From an uncultured Candidatus Saccharibacteria bacterium (GTDB taxonomy: Bacteria; Patescibacteriota; UBA1384; XYA2-FULL-43-10; 1-14-0-10-43-13): a stretch of DNA of 64,000 bases. Under the pieces are notes generated by a model. That model did no database searches, was not told where the DNA came from, and worked only from the letters and a program-made list of their open reading frames with translations. Location: the NCBI GenBank assembly GCA_964364265.1, contig CAYILA010000003.1, positions 19,959 through 83,958 on the forward strand. The letters are read 5' to 3'. A program made the translations under genes and the position numbers. Below are positions 2,041 to 47,782 of the stretch, one piece after another; the first letter of the stretch is position 1, and each line of letters starts with the position of its first letter.

Positions 2041-3273
2041 TTATGGCAAGAAGTGTCTAAAGAAGTTCCTGGTTTTGTCAATAAATCCACCCATTCCAGG
2101 TATATCAAAATCGAAGGAACTCCCTCCCTCGTTCTTATTTTTACCCCATAACATCAACCCTATGGCCGTAGCATATACTGGATCATCAAGCTTGTCAATA
2201 AGGCCGGAAATTTCTAATATCGGTCGACCAACTTGAGCTGGCAGATGCATGGTAGATTTGGTCAACTCAACCACGCCTTCGATTTTTGCCCCGCCTCCGG
2301 TCAGAACTACACCCGCCGGAAGAGCGCCGTCACGGTCTATTCGCGTCAATCTCTCCTTTACGATCATTAGTATTTCATTCAATCTCGCTTCGATAATCTC
2401 CGAAATATATTTGACATTAGCCGTACCCTCTTCGTTTTTATCGAGCTTTCTAAGGTCGATTTCTTCCTTCTCATCGATTTTATCAGGAATAGCGTAGCCG
2501 TATTTTAGCTTAATTAGGTCGGCAAGATCGATATTGGTTCGTAGTCCAATGGCGATATCGTTTGTGATATGGATTGAACCGATCGGAATGACTTCGGAAA
2601 TAATCATATCTCCTTCCTCGAATACCGAGTATGAAGTTGATCCGGCGCCGATATCGATCAGGACTACGCCGATATCCTGTTGTCGCTTCGAGAGGAGAAG
2701 CCCGGCTGTTGAAATTGGAGAATAAACCAGTCCGGAGATACTGACTCCGGCTTGGGTAACGGCCCTAGTTAAGCTTTTTAAAGCATTGGTTGACGTTGAA
2801 ATAACACTGGCAATGACCTCGAGGCGGATGCCGGTCATACCGACCGGATCCTTGATTTCTTCATGACCATCGATTATGAAGTATCTGGGAATGACATGAA
2901 GAATTTCCCGATTTGGTTGGCTCGGTGTCGTTTTAGTGGACTCGATTACTTTTTCGACATCAACCTCGCCTATTTCACCATCTGCCTTGGAAACAGCGAT
3001 TACTCCTTTGGTATCCTCTGATTGGATATGGGCCCCCGATATTCCGACAAAGGCGTTTGCAACTTTCATACCGGACATTTTTTCAGCTTCAACCAACGAG
3101 GCGGAGATTGCAGAAACGGTCTCCTCCACATCAACAATAACGCCCCTCCTGATGCCTTGATTTAAGCTCGAACCGAGTCCAATTATATCGGTGATGCCGT
3201 TTTCGAATTTACCGATACAGGTGATGACTTTCGTGGTGCCGATATCAATTCCGACCGACAAATTATTTCGCAT
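2041..3273 (-). CDS. ftsA: Cell division protein FtsA (actin-like ATPase)
   Basis: IDIGTTKV N-terminus, actin-fold motifs (LTGGGA), and position immediately upstream of ftsZ. Confidence 0.9.
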   Translation of the reverse strand: MRNNLSVGIDIGTTKVITCIGKFENGITDIIGLGSSLNQGIRRGVIVDVEETVSAISASLVEAEKMSGMKVANAFVGISGAHIQSEDTKGVIAVSKADGEIGEVDVEKVIESTKTTPSQPNREILHVIPRYFIIDGHEEIKDPVGMTGIRLEVIASVISTSTNALKSLTRAVTQAGVSISGLVYSPISTAGLLLSKRQQDIGVVLIDIGAGSTSYSVFEEGDMIISEVIPIGSIHITNDIAIGLRTNIDLADLIKLKYGYAIPDKIDEKEEIDLRKLDKNEEGTANVKYISEIIEARLNEILMIVKERLTRIDRDGALPAGVVLTGGGAKIEGVVELTKSTMHLPAQVGRPILEISGLIDKLDDPVYATAIGLMLWGKNKNEGGSSFDFDIPGMGGFIDKTRNFFRHFLP

Positions 3274-30002: not shown

Positions 30003-30493
30003 AACTTCCCTTCCTAGGCGGCCTAGCCGCCGGTCGTGAGCGTTGACCTTTCGGGTCAGCTCGCGCCTGATATTATAAGTTAATAGCAAGCGTGAACTGA
30101 CTCTAAACAACTGGCATTATAGCATAATACTTCGCTTATGTCAATATTAGATTTGCCTATCGGGAAATGCTCGATTCACCAGACTCTTACCTAACAATTA
30201 CGATATCATCTATACCACTTGACTAGGATTACCCCGTCAAAATCTTCTATACAGGCACAATATTGTGTCAAAATTCACGCTGCAGCGTATGTTATGACAC
30301 AAATATACCCAAACTCTGGCGTGAATTCGGGTATATAGTTATTCTTCGAGTGATGCGATGCTGAAATCGGGAAGTATTAATTATTTCTCGATTCCGCCCC
30401 TGGCTCCCCTCGAACAATATAATATTAGGCCTGATTTACTGATTAGCTCCAATCCTTGGTTGGTCGGCCTCGGGCCGAGATTAGCTATCTCTG

Positions 30494-41695: not shown

Positions 41696-43282
41696 GTGTT
41701 TTTAGGCAGACAAAAAAAACCTGTTGTTCTTGTAATTTTGGATGGTTGGGGCGTCGCCCCGTCTTGGGGAGGCAACGCTATCTCTCAAGCCAATACCAAG
41801 TTTTACGACAAGGTCTGGCAACAAGCTCCCAAAACGACTCTATTGGCATCCGGTGAAGCGGTCGGCTTGCCGGTCAGCGCTCCGGGCAATTCGGAAGCCG
41901 GTCACCTCAATATTGGCGCCGGACATGTCGTCCATCAGGACCAGACTTTGATCGATGCCCAGATCGACAACCAATCCTTCTACAGCAACCCAAAAATCCT
42001 CAATGCGATCGAACACGCCACGCAACACAATTCAAACATTCATCTGATGGGTTTGCTCTCAAAAACCGGAACCCACAGTCATATCAAACATCTTTTTGCC
42101 CTTTTGACGCTGTTCAAAGCTAAAAATTTTAGCCGCGTCTTTATTCACTTGTTTACGGATGGTCGCGATTCCGATCCGATGTCCGGCATCGAAATGGTAG
42201 ACGAAGTCGAACACAAAATAGCCGAGATCGGTGTCGGTAAGATATCGTCAATTGCCGGCCGTTTTTATGCCATGGATCGAGACAACCGTTGGGGCCGTGT
42301 CGCCAGAGCATACAATCTACTAGTCAAGGGCGAGGGTAATATATTTGAATCTCCCAAGACCGCGATTACATCGTCTTACTCCCAAGGCATAACCGATGAG
42401 TTTATTGAACCTCGATTAATATCAAACAAAGGTCAACAGATTACATCGATCAAAAGCAATGATAGTATTATATTTTTCAATTTCAGAAGCGACAGAGCCA
42501 AGGAAATCACCAGAGCATTTTTAGATGAACATTTACCGGAGTTTCCGGATCGCATGAAGTTAAGCAATCTCTATTTTGCAACCTTTGTGATTTATGATGA
42601 TCACTTACTATCCGAACAGATATTTTCTCCCGAGAAGATCGTGTACCCGTTAGCCCGAGTATTATCGGAAAATAACTTGAAACAATTGCACATCGCCGAA
42701 ACTGAAAAATATCCTCATGTCACATACTTTTTAAATGGCGGGACCGAAAAACCTTTTCCGGGTGAAAGCCGCGCAATGATTCCTTCTCCCCAAAAATTCA
42801 AAACTTACGATTATGTCCCAAAAATGAACGCTCCTAAATTAACCGCTCTTATCGTATCCACAATCAAAAAAAACATATATGATTTTACAGTTGTAAATTT
42901 TGCCAATACTGATATGGTCGGACATACTGGCAATCTTGGATCAGCAATAATGGCGGTTGAGTGCGTTGACGAATGCGTTTCTAAGATTGCAGATGAAATC
43001 ATAAGCAAGGATGGAATAATGCTAATTGTTGGCGATCATGGCAATGTCGAGCAAATGATTAATCCCCAAACCGGGGACCCAGATACTGAACACTCAACAA
43101 ATCCCGTCCCTTTTATTATCGTATCTAATGACCCAACTATTAATAAACTAAAAATGCAAGCCGACGGAATATTGGCTTCCGTTTCACCAACAATGCTAGA
43201 TTTGATGCAGATTAAAAAACCGGCTGATATGAGAAACAATTCAATTATTATTAAAGAAATCAATGTCCCAATCGCTAAATAA
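41696..43282 (+). CDS. gpmI: 2,3-bisphosphoglycerate-independent phosphoglycerate mutase
   Basis: ILDGWG metal site, catalytic-Ser motif GNSEAGHLNIGAG, HLFTDGRD, VGDHGN. Confidence 0.95.
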   Translation: MFLGRQKKPVVLVILDGWGVAPSWGGNAISQANTKFYDKVWQQAPKTTLLASGEAVGLPVSAPGNSEAGHLNIGAGHVVHQDQTLIDAQIDNQSFYSNPKILNAIEHATQHNSNIHLMGLLSKTGTHSHIKHLFALLTLFKAKNFSRVFIHLFTDGRDSDPMSGIEMVDEVEHKIAEIGVGKISSIAGRFYAMDRDNRWGRVARAYNLLVKGEGNIFESPKTAITSSYSQGITDEFIEPRLISNKGQQITSIKSNDSIIFFNFRSDRAKEITRAFLDEHLPEFPDRMKLSNLYFATFVIYDDHLLSEQIFSPEKIVYPLARVLSENNLKQLHIAETEKYPHVTYFLNGGTEKPFPGESRAMIPSPQKFKTYDYVPKMNAPKLTALIVSTIKKNIYDFTVVNFANTDMVGHTGNLGSAIMAVECVDECVSKIADEIISKDGIMLIVGDHGNVEQMINPQTGDPDTEHSTNPVPFIIVSNDPTINKLKMQADGILASVSPTMLDLMQIKKPADMRNNSIIIKEINVPIAK

Positions 43283-44765
43283 AAATATAATTCTTTGCCT
43301 TACAGATGGTATTGGAATTTCTTCCGCTTGGCAGGGAAATGTTTTGAATATGGGCAAGTCAAATATAATCGGCCGCTTTCTTAAAGAATACCCTTCCGAA
43401 CTCCTAAAAACCGATATTGAAGGGATTACTAAAATCGGAAATCAGTTGGACACTAACTCGTCCTACCAAAGAATATTTACTGGAAAAAATGTCCTGCCGT
43501 CATATGACCGAATAAATAAATCGATATCGGATAGCTCCCATTATCACGATTTGTTTGAAATGCCGATCAAACATCATTCCTCGCTTCATCTGGTCGGCAC
43601 GCTATCGGCTGATAATTTTTATGGCTCGCAAAAACATTTGGAAGAGATACTAAAACAAGCTAAAGGAAGAGGAATATTTAATTTGAACATTCATCTTCTG
43701 ATTGATAATTCATTTAAAACGAAGGAGGAACTTCTTTCTAAATTACAGGAACTGGAGAACTTCACTACAAAAATAAAACTGGGGCGGGTCGTAACGATAG
43801 CCGGCCGTGACAATCTTCATCAAGATATCAATCTAAAATATTTCAAGGCCCTGCTTGCTTGTTTTGTCGGCGGCAAAACCAATAAATCCCTATCCCCTGA
43901 ACAGATAATTAATTTATCCGATAAAAAAGACGGTTTTTCAAAACTGGCTCCTACCTCAATTGTCGAGGACGGATATCAAAAAGGCCGAATTTCCGGATAT
44001 GATACTGTATTATTTTTTGACTATAACAATGATGATTATGATTATTTAATCAATAAACTTGTATTTGGCTCCGGTCTTTTCGGATTGAAAATCCCAAAGT
44101 CATTAAACATTTTCACTCTTTCAACCTCTAAAGTTGATAAGATAAAAAGCATATTTCCAGCCGAAAATAAAAAAGATATCTTTGACCAGATTTCAAGAGA
44201 CAATAAGATTGCCCTAATTTCAGAGATATCAAGATACGCTTACCTAAAACCCTTTACTGAAAATAATAAGATCGATCCGACATTTATTGATTATGAAAAC
44301 AATGAAAACAATTTTTATCTTAAACTATTGTCCGATCTTAAATCAAAATCAGAGAAGTACGAGTTGACAATTTTGGTAATTCCGACGCTTGATAATGCGG
44401 TTATCTCCGACTCAATGGAAAAAACCATTAAATCCTTAAATCTTTACTATCAATTTCTCGAGGATGTTGAAAAATACATTTTGGAAAAAGATTTATTATT
44501 CATATTGACTTCCAGTTACGGCAGAATTAATAACTTAAATAATAAACGAGATAATTTAATCTTGCCCAATTTTGATCCGGTTCCATTTATTGTCTTGTCA
44601 AAATACAAATCAGAAAGCGCTAATTTGCAAACCGAACCGGAAAATAGCATCGCTTCCAATTATTTAAATTTAAAACACGACATCTTAGATGTGGCGCCGA
44701 CCTTGCTTCAGATGTTTGGTTTGGATATTCCCGATAGTCTGACCGGAACAAGTCTCTTGAATTGA
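43263..44765 (+). CDS. Divergent iPGM-like paralog lacking catalytic Ser and metal-binding His/Asp (probable pseudoenzyme)
   Basis: Collinear with gpmI (LTDGIG, HLVGTLS, IAGRDN, PVPFIV, APTLLQMFGL). GNSEAGH is replaced by GNQLDTNSSYQ and VGDHGN by LTSSYGR. Overlaps the gpmI 3' end by 20 nt. Confidence 0.7.
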   Translation: MSQSLNKNIILCLTDGIGISSAWQGNVLNMGKSNIIGRFLKEYPSELLKTDIEGITKIGNQLDTNSSYQRIFTGKNVLPSYDRINKSISDSSHYHDLFEMPIKHHSSLHLVGTLSADNFYGSQKHLEEILKQAKGRGIFNLNIHLLIDNSFKTKEELLSKLQELENFTTKIKLGRVVTIAGRDNLHQDINLKYFKALLACFVGGKTNKSLSPEQIINLSDKKDGFSKLAPTSIVEDGYQKGRISGYDTVLFFDYNNDDYDYLINKLVFGSGLFGLKIPKSLNIFTLSTSKVDKIKSIFPAENKKDIFDQISRDNKIALISEISRYAYLKPFTENNKIDPTFIDYENNENNFYLKLLSDLKSKSEKYELTILVIPTLDNAVISDSMEKTIKSLNLYYQFLEDVEKYILEKDLLFILTSSYGRINNLNNKRDNLILPNFDPVPFIVLSKYKSESANLQTEPENSIASNYLNLKHDILDVAPTLLQMFGLDIPDSLTGTSLLN

Positions 44766-44803
44766 ATTTTGGCGTTAATTCTGATATATTGAGCTTATTA
44801 ATC

Positions 44804-45124
44804 GGGCCCATAGCTTAGTTTCAGCCAGAGGCTGATCGTCCTCTGGACGAGGTAGGGGAAAATGAATTATGTATACTTTATGAAAAGTCTGCGTAACGGC
44901 AAGGTTTATGTCGGCAGAACGACGAATAAGCCTGACAAGCGAGTTTTGGAACATAATAATGGCAGTAATGTTTGGAGTAGACACAACAAACCTTTTGAAT
45001 TAATCTATTTTGAGGAATATTATTGTGAAATAGATTGTGCGAAAAGAGAAGCCTTCTATAAAACAGGAATCGGCAAGAAGGTGAAAAAGGCAATCATCGA
45101 AACGTTTATAACAGAATAATATAT
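44804..45124 (+). mobile_element. tRNA-associated insertion: 17-bp duplicate of tRNA-Ala 5' end plus GIY-YIG ORF
   Basis: GGGCCCATAGCTTAGTT at 44804-44820 is identical to the first 17 nt of the tRNA-Ala at 45125. The 304 bp between them carry a YhbQ-like GIY-YIG ORF. Confidence 0.55.
44862..45119 (+). CDS. GIY-YIG nuclease superfamily protein (YhbQ/UPF0213-like, 85 aa)
   Basis: VYFMKSLRNGKVYVGRTTNKPDKRVLEHNNG matches GIY...YVG.T.n..rR..eHn. A conserved Glu lies in REAFYK. Confidence 0.8.
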   Translation: MNYVYFMKSLRNGKVYVGRTTNKPDKRVLEHNNGSNVWSRHNKPFELIYFEEYYCEIDCAKREAFYKTGIGKKVKKAIIETFITE

Positions 45125-45200
45125 GGGCCCATAGCTTAGTTGGTAGAGCGCCTCCATGGCATGGAGGAGGTCAGGAGTTCAAGTCTCCTTGGGTCCACCA
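45125..45200 (+). tRNA. tRNA-Ala (anticodon GGC), CCA encoded
   Basis: 76 nt cloverleaf, G3:U70 Ala identity pair, anticodon loop AUGGCAU, T-arm AGGAG-TTCAAGT-CTCCT. Confidence 0.9.
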
Positions 45201-45214
45201 AGAAATTAAAATAT

Positions 45215-47782
45215 ATGAAAAAGTATGAGTTCTCTCAAATAGATAAAAAGTGGCAGGAATACTGGAAGAGTACTAGTTATGGCGTCGCCAAAGATGAGGG
45301 TGGGAATAAACATTACCATCTAATCGAGTTTCCTTATCCTTCGGGCGAGGGTCTGCATGTCGGTCATTGTATGGGTTATGGGGCATCTGATGCATACTGC
45401 CGGATGAAAAGGATGCAAGGTTTCAATGTAATGTTCCCGATCGGTTGGGACGCTTTTGGTCTTCCGACTGAAAATTACGCTATTAAGACCGGCATCCATC
45501 CCCGCCTTGCCACCAAACAAAGTATTGATACATTTAAGAAACAAATCGAATCCCTAGGCTACTCTTTTGACTGGAAAAGAGAGATAAACACCACCGATCC
45601 GGAATACTATAAATGGACACAATGGATTTTTTTGCAGTTTTACAAACACGGCATTGTAGACCCTTCGACAGGCTCAGGGCAAGCTGGAAAATTGATTGAG
45701 GTCGCCGATGATGATACTACCACCCCTCGCCTTGCCTACCAAGCCGAAATGCCGATTAACTGGTGTCCTTCTTGTAAAATAGGGCTAGCCAATGAAGAAG
45801 TTATCGCCGGAAAATGCGAGCGCTGTGGAACCGAAACAATCAAAAAAATGCAGAAGCAGTGGCTGTTACGTATTACGGCGTATGCAGACCGCTTAATTTC
45901 CGACCTTGATACGGTTGATTATTTAGACAAGATCAAAACTCAACAAGTAAATTGGATCGGGCGATCTACTGGAACAAATATTCGCTTTACTGTCATTCCT
46001 GCGAACGCAGGAATCTTAAAGATCCCTGATCAAGTCAGGGATGACAATATTGTCGAAATTTTTACCACCCGTACCGATACTTTATTCGGTTGTACCTATA
46101 TTGTTTTGTCACCCGAGCATCCAATTATTGCAAAACTAAAAACAAATATTGCCAATTGTAATAAAGTTAATCAATATATTGAAGATTCTGCTAAAAAGTC
46201 CGACATGGAACGAACGGAATTGGCCAAAGAGAAAACCGGAGTCAAACTGGAAAGTATTAAAGCCATAAATCCGATTAACAATGAAGAGATCGATGTTTGG
46301 ATTGCCGATTATGTACTCGCTTCATACGGAACCGGCGCAGTAATGGCAGTTCCCGCTCACGACGAACGAGATTTTGAATTCGCCAAGAAATACGATATTG
46401 ATATTAAGCAAGTTATTACCGGCGATAATTATAATGACAATAAAGCTTTTACGGAATACGGCATATTAATTCATTCGGGTGGATTTGACGGCTTGACAAG
46501 TAAAGAAGCACAAGGGAAAATCACTATAAAACTAAAGGAAATTGGTGCCGGAGATTTTACTGTTAATTACAAACTTCGGGACTGGATTTTCTCCCGCCAG
46601 CATTATTGGGGCGAACCGATCCCAATTATTCATTGTGATAAATGCGGTACAATTCCAATGGATGAAAATGATTTGCCGCTAACTTTGCCGGAAGTGGAAA
46701 ATTACCAGCCAACCGTTACCGGCGAATCACCATTGGCTGCTATTCCAAATTGGGTCAACACAACTTGTCCGGAGTGCGGCGGTCCCGCAAAAAGAGAGAC
46801 CGACACTATGCCGAACTGGGCCGGCTCTAGCTGGTATTTCTTGCGTTACTGCGATCCGAAAAATATGAATGAATTTGCTTCGATGGACAAACTCGAATAT
46901 TGGTTAAATCCTGGTTTAGATGCCAGCGAGGCCCCGCGTAGCTCGAAGAGCGGAGGTGGGGTTGATATCTACAATGGTGGGATGGAACACACAACTTTGC
47001 ATTTGTTATATTCCCGCTTCTGGCACAAGTTTTTGTATGATTTAGGGAAAGTTCCTTCGAACGAGCCGTACCAAAAAAGAATCGCTCATGGTATAATACT
47101 GGGTCCCGACGGACAGAAGATGAGTAAGTCCCGCGACAATGTCATCAATCCGGATAAAATCGTAGAGAAGTACGGTTCCGATACTTTGCGTACCTATATT
47201 ATGTTTATCGGTCCATACGACCAGGAGTCCGCTTGGAACACTTCCAGCATCCAGGGAGTCTACCGCTTCCTCAACCGACTTTGGAATAATTATGATTTAG
47301 TCAATAACCAATCGGATGAAAAAGATCTATTAATTAAATTGAACCAAACCATCGATTGTGTTACCGCGGACTTGGAATCATTTAATTTAAATACGGTCGT
47401 CTCCAAATTGATGGAAATGAATAATATGATTGAAAAAATCGGTCATATATCTAAGGATTCGTATTCTAAATATCTTAAACTTATTTTTCCCGTAGCACCC
47501 CACATCTCATCCGAATTATTTGAAATGTTGGAAAAAGGCAAAATTGAAGCAAAAGAATGGCCTAAAACCGATTTAAATTATCTTTCCGCCGACCAGATTG
47601 AAATAGTCGTCCAAATCAACGGCAAGGTCAGGGCTAAAATGATGCTCGATGCCAATATTTCCGATCAGGAGATGGTTGATTTCGCCCTTAATTTACCCGA
47701 AGTGAAAGAATATATCGAAGACAAGAAGATAGTAAAGATAATCCCAGTCGCCAAGAAACTGGTCAGTATCGTAATCGCTTGA
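45215..47782 (+). CDS. leuS: Leucyl-tRNA synthetase
   Basis: HVGHCMGY (HIGH), KMSKS, and the CP1 editing domain. Start set at the ATG 14 nt after the tRNA; the track's 45140 start overlaps the tRNA. Confidence 0.95.
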   Translation: MKKYEFSQIDKKWQEYWKSTSYGVAKDEGGNKHYHLIEFPYPSGEGLHVGHCMGYGASDAYCRMKRMQGFNVMFPIGWDAFGLPTENYAIKTGIHPRLATKQSIDTFKKQIESLGYSFDWKREINTTDPEYYKWTQWIFLQFYKHGIVDPSTGSGQAGKLIEVADDDTTTPRLAYQAEMPINWCPSCKIGLANEEVIAGKCERCGTETIKKMQKQWLLRITAYADRLISDLDTVDYLDKIKTQQVNWIGRSTGTNIRFTVIPANAGILKIPDQVRDDNIVEIFTTRTDTLFGCTYIVLSPEHPIIAKLKTNIANCNKVNQYIEDSAKKSDMERTELAKEKTGVKLESIKAINPINNEEIDVWIADYVLASYGTGAVMAVPAHDERDFEFAKKYDIDIKQVITGDNYNDNKAFTEYGILIHSGGFDGLTSKEAQGKITIKLKEIGAGDFTVNYKLRDWIFSRQHYWGEPIPIIHCDKCGTIPMDENDLPLTLPEVENYQPTVTGESPLAAIPNWVNTTCPECGGPAKRETDTMPNWAGSSWYFLRYCDPKNMNEFASMDKLEYWLNPGLDASEAPRSSKSGGGVDIYNGGMEHTTLHLLYSRFWHKFLYDLGKVPSNEPYQKRIAHGIILGPDGQKMSKSRDNVINPDKIVEKYGSDTLRTYIMFIGPYDQESAWNTSSIQGVYRFLNRLWNNYDLVNNQSDEKDLLIKLNQTIDCVTADLESFNLNTVVSKLMEMNNMIEKIGHISKDSYSKYLKLIFPVAPHISSELFEMLEKGKIEAKEWPKTDLNYLSADQIEIVVQINGKVRAKMMLDANISDQEMVDFALNLPEVKEYIEDKKIVKIIPVAKKLVSIVIA

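What the first reader, a model, noticed from the sequence alone, without database searches (positions are those of the whole stretch)
44804..45200. GIY-YIG mini-nuclease lodged next to tRNA-Ala and flanked by a 17-bp duplication of the tRNA 5' end
The sequence GGGCCCATAGCTTAGTT appears at 44804-44820 and again as nt 1-17 of the intact tRNA-Ala(GGC) at 45125. The first copy is followed by non-tRNA sequence with no T-arm. Between the copies lies an 85-aa ORF with a clear GIY-YIG catalytic core (YVY...YVGRT..R..EHN...E) of the YhbQ/UPF0213 type. The ORF has its own SD-like leader (GGTAGGGGAAAATG), and the insertion site directly precedes leuS. This arrangement is what a target-site duplication or a repaired cleavage by a mobile GIY-YIG endonuclease inserting into a tRNA gene would leave. 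The partial tRNA copy would be the footprint, and the element would provide or replace the leuS promoter region.
Basis: partly seen in the sequence, partly recalled or inferred. Interest (0 to 1): 0.7.

Follow-up and report, generated by a model that had tools for sequence, protein, structure and literature searches.

The report
Selfish mini-nuclease gene lodged at tRNA-Ala
An 85-residue GIY-YIG nuclease gene sits between a broken-off copy of the start of tRNA-Ala and the intact tRNA-Ala, and the same layout recurs at two dozen kinds of tRNA gene in several bacterial phyla, which points to a widespread and apparently undescribed kind of selfish gene cassette.

Summary
The 17-mer occurs exactly twice (0 expected), the second copy is nt 1-17 of tRNA-Ala(GGC), and the ORF between is a GIY-YIG domain of the UPF0213/bacterial Slx1 type. 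Independent assemblies carry the same arrangement.

The upstream piece is tRNA nt 1-22, split after nt 17 by a 30-bp double hairpin. That hairpin is a separate palindromic repeat dispersed in Patescibacteria genomes.

Two relatives with the same leuS-rpmF-nusB-rnc synteny have tRNA-Ala(GGC) before leuS with no insert. A third carries a different GIY-YIG gene (32% identity) at its tRNA-Ala.

Of 92 homologous ORFs in 80 genomes, 70 lie within 100 nt of a same-strand tRNA (control 4.5%), spread over 24 anticodon species. Most cassettes with the tRNA downstream carry a 5' tRNA fragment that starts at +1, ends near nt 23 and holds a hairpin insert. Tandem arrays and fragments from foreign tRNA alleles also occur.

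Best reading: a homing-like selfish cassette embedded in a tRNA transcription unit. The cleavage target and the transfer mechanism are inferred, not shown. I found no description of it in the searchable literature.

The parts
44762..44790 (+). Promoter-like site (TTGAAT, 17 nt, TG-TATATT) just upstream of the tRNA fragment. It is probably the original tRNA-Ala promoter, now driving fragment, ORF and tRNA together.
   Evidence: Consensus scan. Its role is inferred. In L016 and L027 a conserved promoter-like block likewise sits upstream of the fragment, not of the intact tRNA.
44804..44820 (+). Copy of tRNA-Ala(GGC) nt 1-17 (acceptor 5' strand and the first part of the D-arm). It is the left arm of the direct repeat.
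   Evidence: Exact 17/17 match to 45125-45141 with 0 expected by chance. The identity stops exactly at tRNA +1 on the upstream side.
44821..44850 (.). 30-bp double hairpin TCAGCCAGAGGCTGA|TCGTCCTCTGGACGA inserted between tRNA nt 17 and 18 of the fragment. It is a member of a dispersed palindromic repeat family of Patescibacteria.
   Evidence: As DNA it folds into two 6-bp/3-nt hairpins at -10 kcal/mol, z -4.4. A degenerate pattern hit more than 120 metagenome stretches. Most of the 86 copies examined are far from any GIY-YIG gene or tRNA. The free stem positions covary (85-98% Watson-Crick against 36-57% shuffled).
44851..44855 (+). Resumption of the tRNA copy, nt 18-22 (GGTAG; it would reach nt 24 with one mismatch). 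The six bases after it (GGGAAA, 44856-44861) precede the ATG.
   Evidence: With the 30-mer removed, local alignment of the upstream region to the intact tRNA covers nt 1-22, leaving a 6-nt gap to the ATG. See also alignment A5.
44862..45119 (+). GIY-YIG mini-nuclease gene, 85 aa, catalytic domain only, of the UPF0213/bacterial Slx1-like type.
   Evidence: Pfam PF01541 at E 1.1e-13. Family profile against the PDB: 1ywl 2.3e-11, 1zg2 1.4e-10, SLX1 7wme 8.3e-5, I-TevI 0.054. R27, E51 and E63 are invariant and Y5, Y16, G18, H31 and N32 nearly invariant among 30 relatives.
45125..45200 (+). Intact tRNA-Ala(GGC). Its first 17 nt form the right arm of the direct repeat.
   Evidence: ARAGORN and Rfam tRNA at 65.3 bits. 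It differs at only 2 compensatory positions from the tRNA-Ala at the empty site in L208.
45215..47782 (+). leuS (context only). The order tRNA-Ala(GGC)-leuS-rpmF-nusB-rnc is the ancestral neighbourhood.
   Evidence: The synteny in relatives is shown.

Best explanation
The locus holds a small selfish gene cassette that lives inside a tRNA transcription unit. Compared with the ancestral state (promoter - tRNA-Ala(GGC) - leuS), 321 bp have been added. The added DNA is a GIY-YIG (bacterial Slx1/UPF0213-type) nuclease gene together with a second copy of the first ~22 nt of the tRNA. The tRNA downstream is therefore still whole, and the old promoter now reads through fragment, ORF and tRNA in turn (inferred). 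The cassette belongs to a large family found next to at least 24 tRNA species in several phyla. Most likely mechanism, inferred: spread is recombination-dependent and homing-like. The conserved tRNA sequence acts as portable homology on both sides of the ORF, and the nuclease stimulates the recombination by nicking or cutting tRNA-gene DNA. Because it has no DNA-binding module, it probably recognises a structure (hairpin or cloverleaf junction) rather than a long sequence. The outcome is a partial tandem duplication of the tRNA with the ORF in between. The redundant copy then decays. The 30-bp double hairpin in the fragment is a separate, dispersed palindromic repeat that landed in the fragment's D-loop. 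Such interruptions occur in almost every cassette. They may persist because they break the direct repeat that could otherwise delete the ORF, or because they destroy a nuclease site or stabilise the leader mRNA (speculative). Once in place, a cassette can be inherited vertically for a long time.
For: Insertion. L208 and L204 (LeuS 65-68% identical, same leuS-rpmF-nusB-rnc synteny) have tRNA-Ala(GGC) upstream of leuS with no fragment, ORF or hairpin. L207 has a different GIY-YIG (32% identity) at its tRNA-Ala(GGC).

Family-wide link to tRNA. Of 92 homologous ORFs, 70 lie within 100 nt of a tRNA, all on the same strand, covering 24 anticodon species. Random windows in the same loci give 4.5%. 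The nearest-neighbour protein sits at a tRNA for a different amino acid in 27 of 41 cases.

Stereotyped fragment. In 34 of 48 loci with a downstream tRNA, the 5' end of that tRNA recurs upstream of the ATG at p<=0.005. After hairpin removal the fragment runs from nt 1 to nt 19-30. Identity starts at +1 (0-1 nt extension) in 18 of 25 cases.

Recombination and horizontal arrival. Fragments come from foreign tRNA alleles. In L207, nt 1-19 equal the resident tRNA and nt 20-52 carry compensatory stem changes. Similar cases are L003, L008 and L018 and L123. Tandem arrays occur in L052, L060 and L063.

Active enzyme. Catalytic residues are conserved, and the ORFs inspected in the related loci are open through the matched region.

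Precedent. T4 SegB is a GIY-YIG homing endonuclease inside a tRNA gene cluster that recognises the conserved T-arm motif (PMC2330249).

The hairpin is a separate repeat.
Against: No cleavage activity or target is known, and the intact tRNA next to the ORF would still carry any site that lies within the tRNA. The 85-aa protein lacks the DNA-binding modules of proven GIY-YIG homing enzymes. Cassettes can be old and conserved. L013 and L015 keep the same site and the same hairpin slots, with the ORF 67% identical against 61% for a flanking protein; this also fits a host function. How a cassette moves to a new tRNA species while leaving a correct tRNA is not explained. tRNA 5' fragments without any ORF occur at 13 of 125 other tRNAs, so the duplication may not need the ORF. 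No copy was found in viral contigs, so no vector is known. The protein structure could not be modelled with confidence (pLDDT 59.5).
Confidence: 0.6

Rival explanations
1. The GIY-YIG protein is a host housekeeping factor for tRNA or RNA metabolism, or for DNA repair at highly transcribed, structure-prone tRNA genes. It is co-transcribed with tRNAs because it works with them. The tRNA fragments and hairpins are by-products of palindromic-repeat insertion and local duplication, not of mobility of the ORF.
For: The site has been retained for a long time under purifying selection (L013/L015; L016/L027). The UPF0213/Slx1-like cluster is described as mostly vertically inherited, and one member is fused to a TrmH-like tRNA Gm18 methyltransferase (PMC1564403). 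ORF-less tRNA fragments carrying hairpins exist. The ORF always lies on the same strand as the tRNA and directly abuts it.
Against: The protein is present, absent or replaced at the same tRNA-Ala among relatives. It has 24 different tRNA partners, and close protein relatives sit at different tRNAs. Tandem arrays of identical ORFs occur (L052). Two different GIY-YIG genes flank one tRNA-His (L003). Fragments from foreign alleles are found.
Confidence: 0.2
2. The duplication is a classical target-site duplication made by a transposition-type insertion. Staggered cuts at tRNA +1 and near nt 23 would be followed by fill-in. The GIY-YIG protein would act as a structure-specific nuclease that cuts at the junctions of an extruded tRNA-gene cloverleaf.
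For: The repeat starts exactly at +1 in 18 of 25 cases. Fragment ends cluster at the 3' edge of the D-arm (nt 19-30), and 3'-type fragments start at nt 47-55, the 5' edge of the T-arm. These are structural junctions. Slx1-type enzymes are structure-specific flap and junction nucleases (established knowledge; PDB matches).
Against: The duplicate length is not fixed (19-30 nt, about 52 in L207, full length in L039 and L069). Fragments from foreign alleles cannot arise by duplicating the target. There are no terminal inverted repeats and no conserved element ends. No GIY-YIG transposase is known.
Confidence: 0.1
3. The partial tRNA is an att-site remnant of an integrase-mediated element (prophage or island) that integrated into tRNA-Ala and was later deleted down to one gene.
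For: Partial tRNA genes next to intact ones are the known signature of integrated elements (PMC9897764). Type B loci (intact tRNA - ORF - 3' tRNA fragment) look like attL/attR pairs.
Against: The whole 'island' is 321 bp and no integrase was seen in the genes called around it (iPGM paralogues upstream; leuS, rpmF, nusB, rnc downstream). The same minimal unit recurs in dozens of genomes. It is the 5' end of the tRNA that is duplicated, and the repeat starts at +1.
Confidence: 0.04
4. The hairpin-bearing tRNA copy is a functional split or intron-containing tRNA. The double hairpin would be a D-loop intron removed at the RNA level, possibly by the GIY-YIG protein.
For: The insert sits at defined tRNA positions (12/13, 17/18, T-loop) and its stems covary.
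Against: Removing the 30-mer restores an ARAGORN-detectable tRNA in only 2 of 58 cases, and both have an acceptor-stem mismatch. In the window the copy stops at nt 22. The same 30-mer is mostly found outside tRNAs. No Rfam family matches it.
Confidence: 0.03
5. The repeat is an assembly artefact.
For: None beyond the general risk in metagenome assemblies.
Against: The same structure appears in independent assemblies that differ by a nearby SNP, and the same architecture appears in dozens of unrelated genomes.
Confidence: 0.01

Closest known systems
Phage T4 SegB, a free-standing GIY-YIG homing endonuclease in the T4 tRNA gene cluster (PMC2330249)
   Same: Both are GIY-YIG nuclease genes lying between tRNA genes. 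SegB recognises a site built around a conserved tRNA motif (the T-arm). It spreads by cleavage plus recombination, with co-conversion of the flanking tRNA genes. This parallels the foreign-allele tRNA fragments seen here.
   Different: SegB is a sequence-specific enzyme of the homing-endonuclease branch, recognising a 27-bp site. The protein here is an 85-aa bare catalytic domain of the Slx1/UPF0213 branch. The abstract read here mentions no partial tRNA duplication or hairpin insert for SegB, and SegB is a phage gene whereas these cassettes are chromosomal and span phyla. No activity is shown here.
Bacterial Slx1-like / UPF0213 (YhbQ, YazA, EF2693, BH0048) minimal GIY-YIG proteins (PMC1564403; PDB 1ywl, 1zg2)
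   Same: These are the best sequence and profile matches. They share the stand-alone ~90-aa domain without accessory domains.
   Different: That family is described as mainly vertically inherited putative repair proteins of unknown function. Neither a link to tRNA genes nor duplicated tRNA fragments is mentioned in the paper that defines it.
Integrase-mediated islands in tRNA genes (attL/attR partial tRNA repeats; PMC9897764)
   Same: An intact tRNA lies next to a direct repeat of part of the same tRNA, with foreign DNA between them.
   Different: There is no integrase and the insert is only 321 bp. Here the 5' part of the tRNA is repeated, starting exactly at +1. The repeat is interrupted by a hairpin element.
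REP/BIME elements with RAYT transposases, and Rickettsia palindromic elements (comparison for the 30-bp double hairpin only)
   Same: All are short, dispersed, structure-conserving palindromic repeats that nest in permissive sites, including loops of other hairpins and RNA genes. A nuclease gene is often flanked by them.
   Different: No Y1 (RAYT) transposase was found. Most copies are not near a GIY-YIG gene, so a REP/RAYT-type partnership with the GIY-YIG protein is not shown.

Membership tests
GIY-YIG nuclease superfamily (Pfam PF01541) | Profile match above the curated cut-off | tested here: met
   51.7 bits against a cut-off of 22.6, E 1.1e-13, residues 1-68.
GIY-YIG nuclease superfamily (Pfam PF01541) | Catalytic motif residues: Tyr of 'GIY', Tyr-x-Gly of 'YIG', the conserved Arg and the metal-binding Glu | tested here: met
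   Y5, Y16-V-G18, R27 and E63 are present. R27 and E63 are invariant and Y5, Y16 and G18 at least 90% conserved among 30 relatives. Assigning E63 as the metal ligand is by analogy.
Bacterial Slx1-like / UPF0213 (YhbQ) cluster | Closest similarity is to UPF0213 and SLX1 rather than to homing-endonuclease or UvrC branches | tested here: met
   Profile A1 against the PDB: 1ywl 2.3e-11, 1zg2 1.4e-10, SLX1 7wme 8.3e-5, I-TevI 0.054. Single sequence: 1ywl 1.2e-5.
Bacterial Slx1-like / UPF0213 (YhbQ) cluster | Minimal stand-alone domain with no accessory domain | tested here: met
   The protein is 85 aa and Pfam finds only the GIY-YIG domain.
Bacterial Slx1-like / UPF0213 (YhbQ) cluster | Three-dimensional fold as in 1ywl and 1zg2 | tested here: inconclusive
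   The AlphaFold model from a 2-sequence alignment had pLDDT 59.5, too poor for a fold search.
GIY-YIG homing endonucleases (I-TevI / Seg type) | Catalytic domain joined to a sequence-specific DNA-binding module; match to the group I intron endonuclease family model | tested here: not met
   TIGR01453 scores 16.4 bits against a cut-off of 56. There are no residues beyond the catalytic domain. PHROG homing-endonuclease matches are weak (E 9e-4).
GIY-YIG homing endonucleases (I-TevI / Seg type) | Presence/absence polymorphism of the gene at a conserved site in relatives | tested here: met
   L204 and L208 are empty, the window is filled, and L207 is filled by another subfamily. These relatives are distant (LeuS 65-68% identical), so this is not an allelic comparison.
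GIY-YIG homing endonucleases (I-TevI / Seg type) | Site-specific cleavage of the empty site and nuclease-dependent inheritance | not testable with these tools
   This requires biochemistry and genetic crosses.
GIY-YIG homing endonucleases (I-TevI / Seg type) | Co-conversion of flanking sequence from the donor | tested here: inconclusive
   Foreign-allele tRNA fragments next to the ORF in L207, L003, L008, L018 and L123 fit co-conversion. In the window the fragment equals the resident tRNA.
Transposon with target-site duplication | Fixed-length duplication, terminal inverted repeats and a transposase | tested here: not met
   Fragment length varies from 19 to 30 nt and reaches about 52 or full length. 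No conserved ends were seen. The only ORF is the GIY-YIG domain.
Group I intron with an endonuclease ORF in a tRNA gene | Ribozyme core flanking the ORF, with the tRNA split into exons | tested here: not met
   Only 41 + 5 nt of the insert are non-coding. The Rfam E-value scan found no intron family. The downstream tRNA is complete on its own.
Integrase-borne island at a tRNA gene | Tyrosine or serine integrase between the tRNA repeats | tested here: not met
   The 321-bp insert holds a single 85-aa ORF.
Dispersed palindromic repeat (REP-like), for the 30-bp double hairpin | Many dispersed copies with a conserved structure | tested here: met
The 86 copies examined are mostly away from GIY-YIG genes and tRNAs. 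Stem covariation is shown.
Dispersed palindromic repeat (REP-like), for the 30-bp double hairpin | A cognate mobilising enzyme (RAYT-type in REP systems) | not tested
   No search for Y1 transposases was made. The GIY-YIG gene is next to only about 8 of the 86 copies.

The most novel reading that the evidence does not exclude
The cassettes form a distinct, undescribed class of mobile element. A bare Slx1-type GIY-YIG nuclease would recognise the folded (cloverleaf or hairpin) form of tRNA-gene DNA, cut at its structural junctions (+1, the end of the D-arm, the start of the T-arm), and so drive copying of its own ~250-bp gene into tRNA transcription units of any isoacceptor across phyla. It would always regenerate an intact tRNA by partial duplication. 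The lineage-specific hairpin repeats found in the fragments would be functional partners (immunity or stabilising elements, or non-autonomous passengers as in REP/RAYT), not accidents.
Probability: 0.25. Interest if true: 0.85.

Novelty: new variant of a known kind. Interest (0 to 1): 0.68.

Why it matters
If the reading holds, it gives a biological role to part of the large, uncharacterised UPF0213/bacterial Slx1 family. It would also add a new way for a selfish gene to exploit tRNA genes. The cassette does not use the tRNA as an integrase attachment site or as an intron host. Instead it sits in the leader of the tRNA transcript and keeps the tRNA whole through a partial duplication. This would explain many tRNA gene fragments that confuse tRNA annotation in Patescibacteria, Bacteroidota and other phyla. 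It would show that genome-reduced CPR bacteria tolerate and keep such parasites. It would also provide a very small (85 aa), possibly structure-specific nuclease whose target is easy to test. The 30-bp double hairpin is in addition a convenient marker of a dispersed repeat family in CPR genomes.

Tried and rejected
1. Assembly artefact: rejected, because independent assemblies agree.
2. Group I intron or another known RNA: the Rfam E-value scan of 44300-45700 found only the tRNA.
3. D-loop 'intron': excising the 30-mer restores a tRNA in 2 of 58 cases only.
4. I first read the 30-mer in L003, L010 and L016 as the inverted orientation of the window's copy. The family pattern is its own reverse complement, so orientation cannot be defined, and that inference was dropped.
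5. A single long hairpin for the 30-mer: covariation supports two short hairpins, not the long palindrome.
6. Empty site via the upstream gene: the 500-aa iPGM-like protein has no relative above 26% identity. The comparison succeeded only through LeuS.
7. Phage vector: no relative was found in viral contigs.
8. Defence system: no PADLOC match.
9. Structure prediction: the model was too poor (pLDDT 59.5), so no fold search was run. Deeper alignments could not be submitted under the tool's input rule.
10. The 30-sequence alignment was too diverse for the search for related loci; a 6-sequence alignment worked.
11. Literature: eight searches (GIY-YIG with tRNA gene, CPR, YhbQ, UPF0213, partial tRNA and others) found no description of tRNA-linked mini GIY-YIG cassettes. 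The library is incomplete, so this is absence of evidence only.
Full report
**1. Observation**

The 17-mer GGGCCCATAGCTTAGTT occurs at 44804-44820 and 45125-45141 and nowhere else in the window, even with two mismatches allowed. One hundred dinucleotide-preserving shuffles gave no match. The second copy is nt 1-17 of an intact tRNA-Ala(GGC) at 45125-45200 (ARAGORN; Rfam tRNA 65.3 bits).

Between the copies lies one ORF, 44862-45119 (+), 85 aa. It matches Pfam GIY-YIG with E 1.1e-13. leuS follows, with its real start at 45215.

The sequence comes from a Patescibacteria MAG from Hainich groundwater. Contigs from separate assemblies carry the same arrangement, and L001 differs from L002 and the window at one base nearby. 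An assembly artefact is therefore excluded.

**2. Corrected anatomy**

The sequence after the first 17-mer is a 30-bp element, TCAGCCAGAGGCTGA|TCGTCCTCTGGACGA (44821-44850). It folds into two adjacent hairpins, each with a 6-bp stem and a 3-nt loop (DNA fold -10 kcal/mol, z -4.4). After it the tRNA sequence resumes as GGTAG (nt 18-22), six bases before the ATG.

The duplicated segment is therefore tRNA nt 1-22, split at 17/18 by the hairpin element. A promoter-like site (TTGAAT-17-TG-TATATT, 44762-44790) lies just upstream of the fragment.

**3. The protein**

The word-index search found only one close homologue (62% identity). The exhaustive search found 1,691 representative clusters at E<=1e-3, nearly all 70-130 aa.

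A profile of 30 relatives matches the PDB best at the two UPF0213 structures (1ywl 2.3e-11, 1zg2 1.4e-10). SLX1 comes next (7wme 8.3e-5), and I-TevI only at 0.054. R27, E51 and E63 are invariant, and Y5, Y16, G18, H31 and N32 nearly so.

This places the protein in the 'prokaryotic Slx1' cluster of minimal GIY-YIG domains defined by Dunin-Horkawicz et al. 2006 (PMC1564403). It does not reach the group I intron endonuclease family model (16.4 bits against 56). It has no DNA-binding module.

**4. Empty sites**

The upstream gene has no useful relatives, but LeuS does (65-68% identity). Five of the closest relatives all keep the order leuS-rpmF-nusB-rnc-peptidase_S11.

- L208 has tRNA-Ala(GGC) upstream of leuS. 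It differs from the window's tRNA only at the compensatory pair 7:66. There is no fragment, no ORF and no hairpin.
- L204 has tRNA-Ala(GGC) 20 nt before leuS, also bare.
- L206 has no tRNA at that position. L205 holds only 51 nt upstream of leuS, so it is uninformative.
- L207 has its tRNA-Ala(GGC) on the other strand, preceded by a different GIY-YIG gene (76 aa, 32% identical) and by a tRNA-Ala fragment covering nt 1 to about 52. In that fragment nt 1-19 equal the resident tRNA. Nt 20-52 are a foreign allele with compensatory anticodon-stem changes and a 1-nt insertion in the anticodon loop.

Relative to the empty state, the window carries a 321-bp insertion.

**5. The arrangement is the norm for the family**

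A scan of one genome per species returned 80 loci. They come from many Patescibacteria lineages and from genomes labelled Omnitrophota, Bacteroidota, Ignavibacteria/Melioribacter, Chloroflexota, Calditrichaeota and others.

- Of 92 homologous ORFs, 70 have a tRNA gene within 100 nt, always on the same strand (46 downstream, 24 upstream). They cover 24 anticodon species. Random 250-nt windows in the same loci are near a tRNA in 4.5% of cases.
- The nearest protein relative sits at a tRNA for a different amino acid in 27 of 41 cases.
- Where the tRNA is downstream, its 5' end recurs upstream of the ATG in 34 of 48 loci (p<=0.005 each).
- After hairpin removal the fragment runs from nt 1 to nt 19-30, median about 23, and ends 0-19 nt before the ATG.
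- Identity begins at tRNA +1 (0-1 nt extension) in 18 of 25 exact cases.
- Where the intact tRNA is upstream, a full or 3'-partial copy (starting at nt 47-55) follows the ORF.
- Tandem arrays occur: L052 has three identical units of 296 bp, and L060 and L063 also have arrays.
- L003 has two different GIY-YIG genes flanking one tRNA-His.

**6. The hairpin**

In Patescibacteria cassettes the 30-mer sits after tRNA nt 12 or nt 17 of the fragment. In L013, L015 and L018 it sits at both positions, and in 3' fragments it sits in the T-loop. Removing it restores a detectable tRNA in only 2 of 58 cases, so it is not an intron of a working tRNA.

Of the 86 copies examined, only about 8 lie next to a GIY-YIG ORF and about 12 near a tRNA. 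The rest are dispersed, with T-rich left and A-rich right flanks. Twelve of 84 have abutting direct repeats of 5 nt or more (1.5 expected), and some are nested in the loops of other palindromes.

The unconstrained stem positions pair in 85-98% of distinct copies, against 36-57% after shuffling. They do so for two short hairpins, not for one long palindrome. The element is thus an independent, dispersed palindromic repeat.

A second, degenerate copy lies in the window at 30449-30478, flanked by the 8-nt repeat GATTAGCT.

A hairpin insertion in the fragment's D-arm is found in cassettes of every phylum, with lineage-specific sequences: 19 nt in L052, 37 nt in L065, 65 nt in L040. This regularity is unexplained.

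**7. Persistence and turnover**

L013 and L015 (Curtissbacteria) share the site and both hairpin slots. Their ORFs are 67% identical, against 61% for a flanking protein. L016 and L027 (Gottesmanbacteria; flanking proteins 84% identical, tRNA and promoter almost identical) have ORFs only 63% identical, and their hairpins occupy different slots.

Cassettes can therefore be inherited vertically for long periods while their parts turn over. tRNA 5' fragments without an ORF occur at 13 of 125 other tRNAs in these loci. They may be relics, or they may show that the duplication does not need the ORF.

**8. Interpretation**

What is shown:
- there is an insertion relative to relatives;
- the protein family is tightly and specifically linked to tRNA genes of many kinds;
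- the fragment architecture is stereotyped;
- fragments from foreign tRNA alleles occur;
- tandem arrays occur;
- the catalytic residues are conserved.

What is inferred:
- The cassette spreads by recombination, using the conserved tRNA sequence as homology on both sides. This explains the partial tandem duplication and the donor-type fragments.
- The nuclease promotes this by cutting tRNA-gene DNA. The closest precedent is T4 SegB, a GIY-YIG homing endonuclease inside a tRNA cluster that recognises the T-arm motif (PMC2330249).
- The protein here is a bare Slx1-type domain, and the fragment boundaries fall at structural junctions of the cloverleaf (+1, the end of the D-arm, the start of the T-arm). 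Structure-specific recognition therefore seems more likely than sequence-specific recognition.
- The ORF is probably expressed from the tRNA promoter as part of the tRNA leader.

The main rival is a host function in tRNA or RNA metabolism. It is kept at 0.2 because of the long persistence of some cassettes and the known TrmH fusion in this cluster.

**9. Novelty**

Eight full-text searches found no description of tRNA-linked mini GIY-YIG cassettes or of this fragment architecture. The known phenomena nearest to it are SegB and integrase-derived tRNA fragments (PMC9897764).

I rate the finding as a new variant of a known kind, namely free-standing homing-type nuclease genes. There is a 0.25 chance that it is a distinct class of structure-targeting element.

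Noticed in passing
window 30449-30478: A second, degenerate copy of the double-hairpin repeat (CCAATCCTTGGTTGG|TCGGCCTCGGGCCGA) lies in an intergenic gap. It is flanked on both sides by the 8-nt direct repeat GATTAGCT, which looks like a target-site duplication.
   Followed up: partly
window 45992-46048 (inside leuS): A 57-nt structured palindromic element (GTCATTCCTGCGAACGCAGGAATC...TCCCTGATCAAGTCAGGGATGAC, two hairpins, fold -30.7 kcal/mol with 15-nt flanks) appears to be inserted in frame in LeuS, adding VIPANAGILKIPDQVRDDN. It resembles Rickettsia palindromic elements in proteins. The same ATTCCCGCG...CGCGGGAAT-type repeat hosts a 30-mer in its loop in L156. The stretch PSTGSGQAGKL (45662-45694) may be another insert. 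No LeuS alignment was made to confirm either insertion.
   Followed up: partly
window 41696-43282 and 43263-44765: Two tandem iPGM-like genes. The second (500 aa, iPGM_N domain only) has no relative above 26% identity outside this organism in a 5.8-billion-protein database, so it is a highly divergent paralogue.
   Followed up: partly
L142 2550-2889: Four tandem 70-nt units lie directly upstream of the intact tRNA-Arg, with no GIY-YIG ORF. Each unit is a tRNA-Arg(CCT) 5' fragment (nt 1-13 and 14-22) split by the 30-mer plus a remnant of another palindromic repeat.
   Followed up: partly
L003 377-634 and 717-908+: Two different GIY-YIG genes (62% and 41% identical to the window's) flank a single tRNA-His on a 910-bp contig.
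   Followed up: no
L059, L061, L066, L068, L081 (around 2960-3270): A GIY-YIG subfamily in which the ORF is bracketed by ~13-nt inverted repeats (for example CCCCCACACCAATT-ATG...TAA-TTGGTGTTGGGGG). Most copies have no tRNA within 100 nt. In L066 the right repeat overlaps the start of tRNA-Tyr.
   Followed up: no
L017 2480-2631: A clean 49-nt tandem duplication of the promoter region plus tRNA-Phe nt 1-23, with neither hairpin nor ORF. It ends at the same tRNA position as the GIY-YIG-associated fragments.
   Followed up: no
L102 4911 and 6099; L105 1385; L156 12592: Copies of the 30-mer sit exactly in the centre (loop) of other, longer palindromes. This suggests that the repeat inserts preferentially into hairpin loops, which would also explain the D-loop and T-loop positions in tRNA fragments.
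   Followed up: no
Type A loci such as L007, L008, L013-L015, L024, L028, L029, L032, L035: In about 12 of 43 cassettes the ORF has no stop codon of its own and ends at the conserved U8-A9-G10 (TAG) of the downstream tRNA. The mRNA and the mature tRNA therefore overlap by 10 nt. The share (about one third) is what a random reading frame would give.
   Followed up: partly
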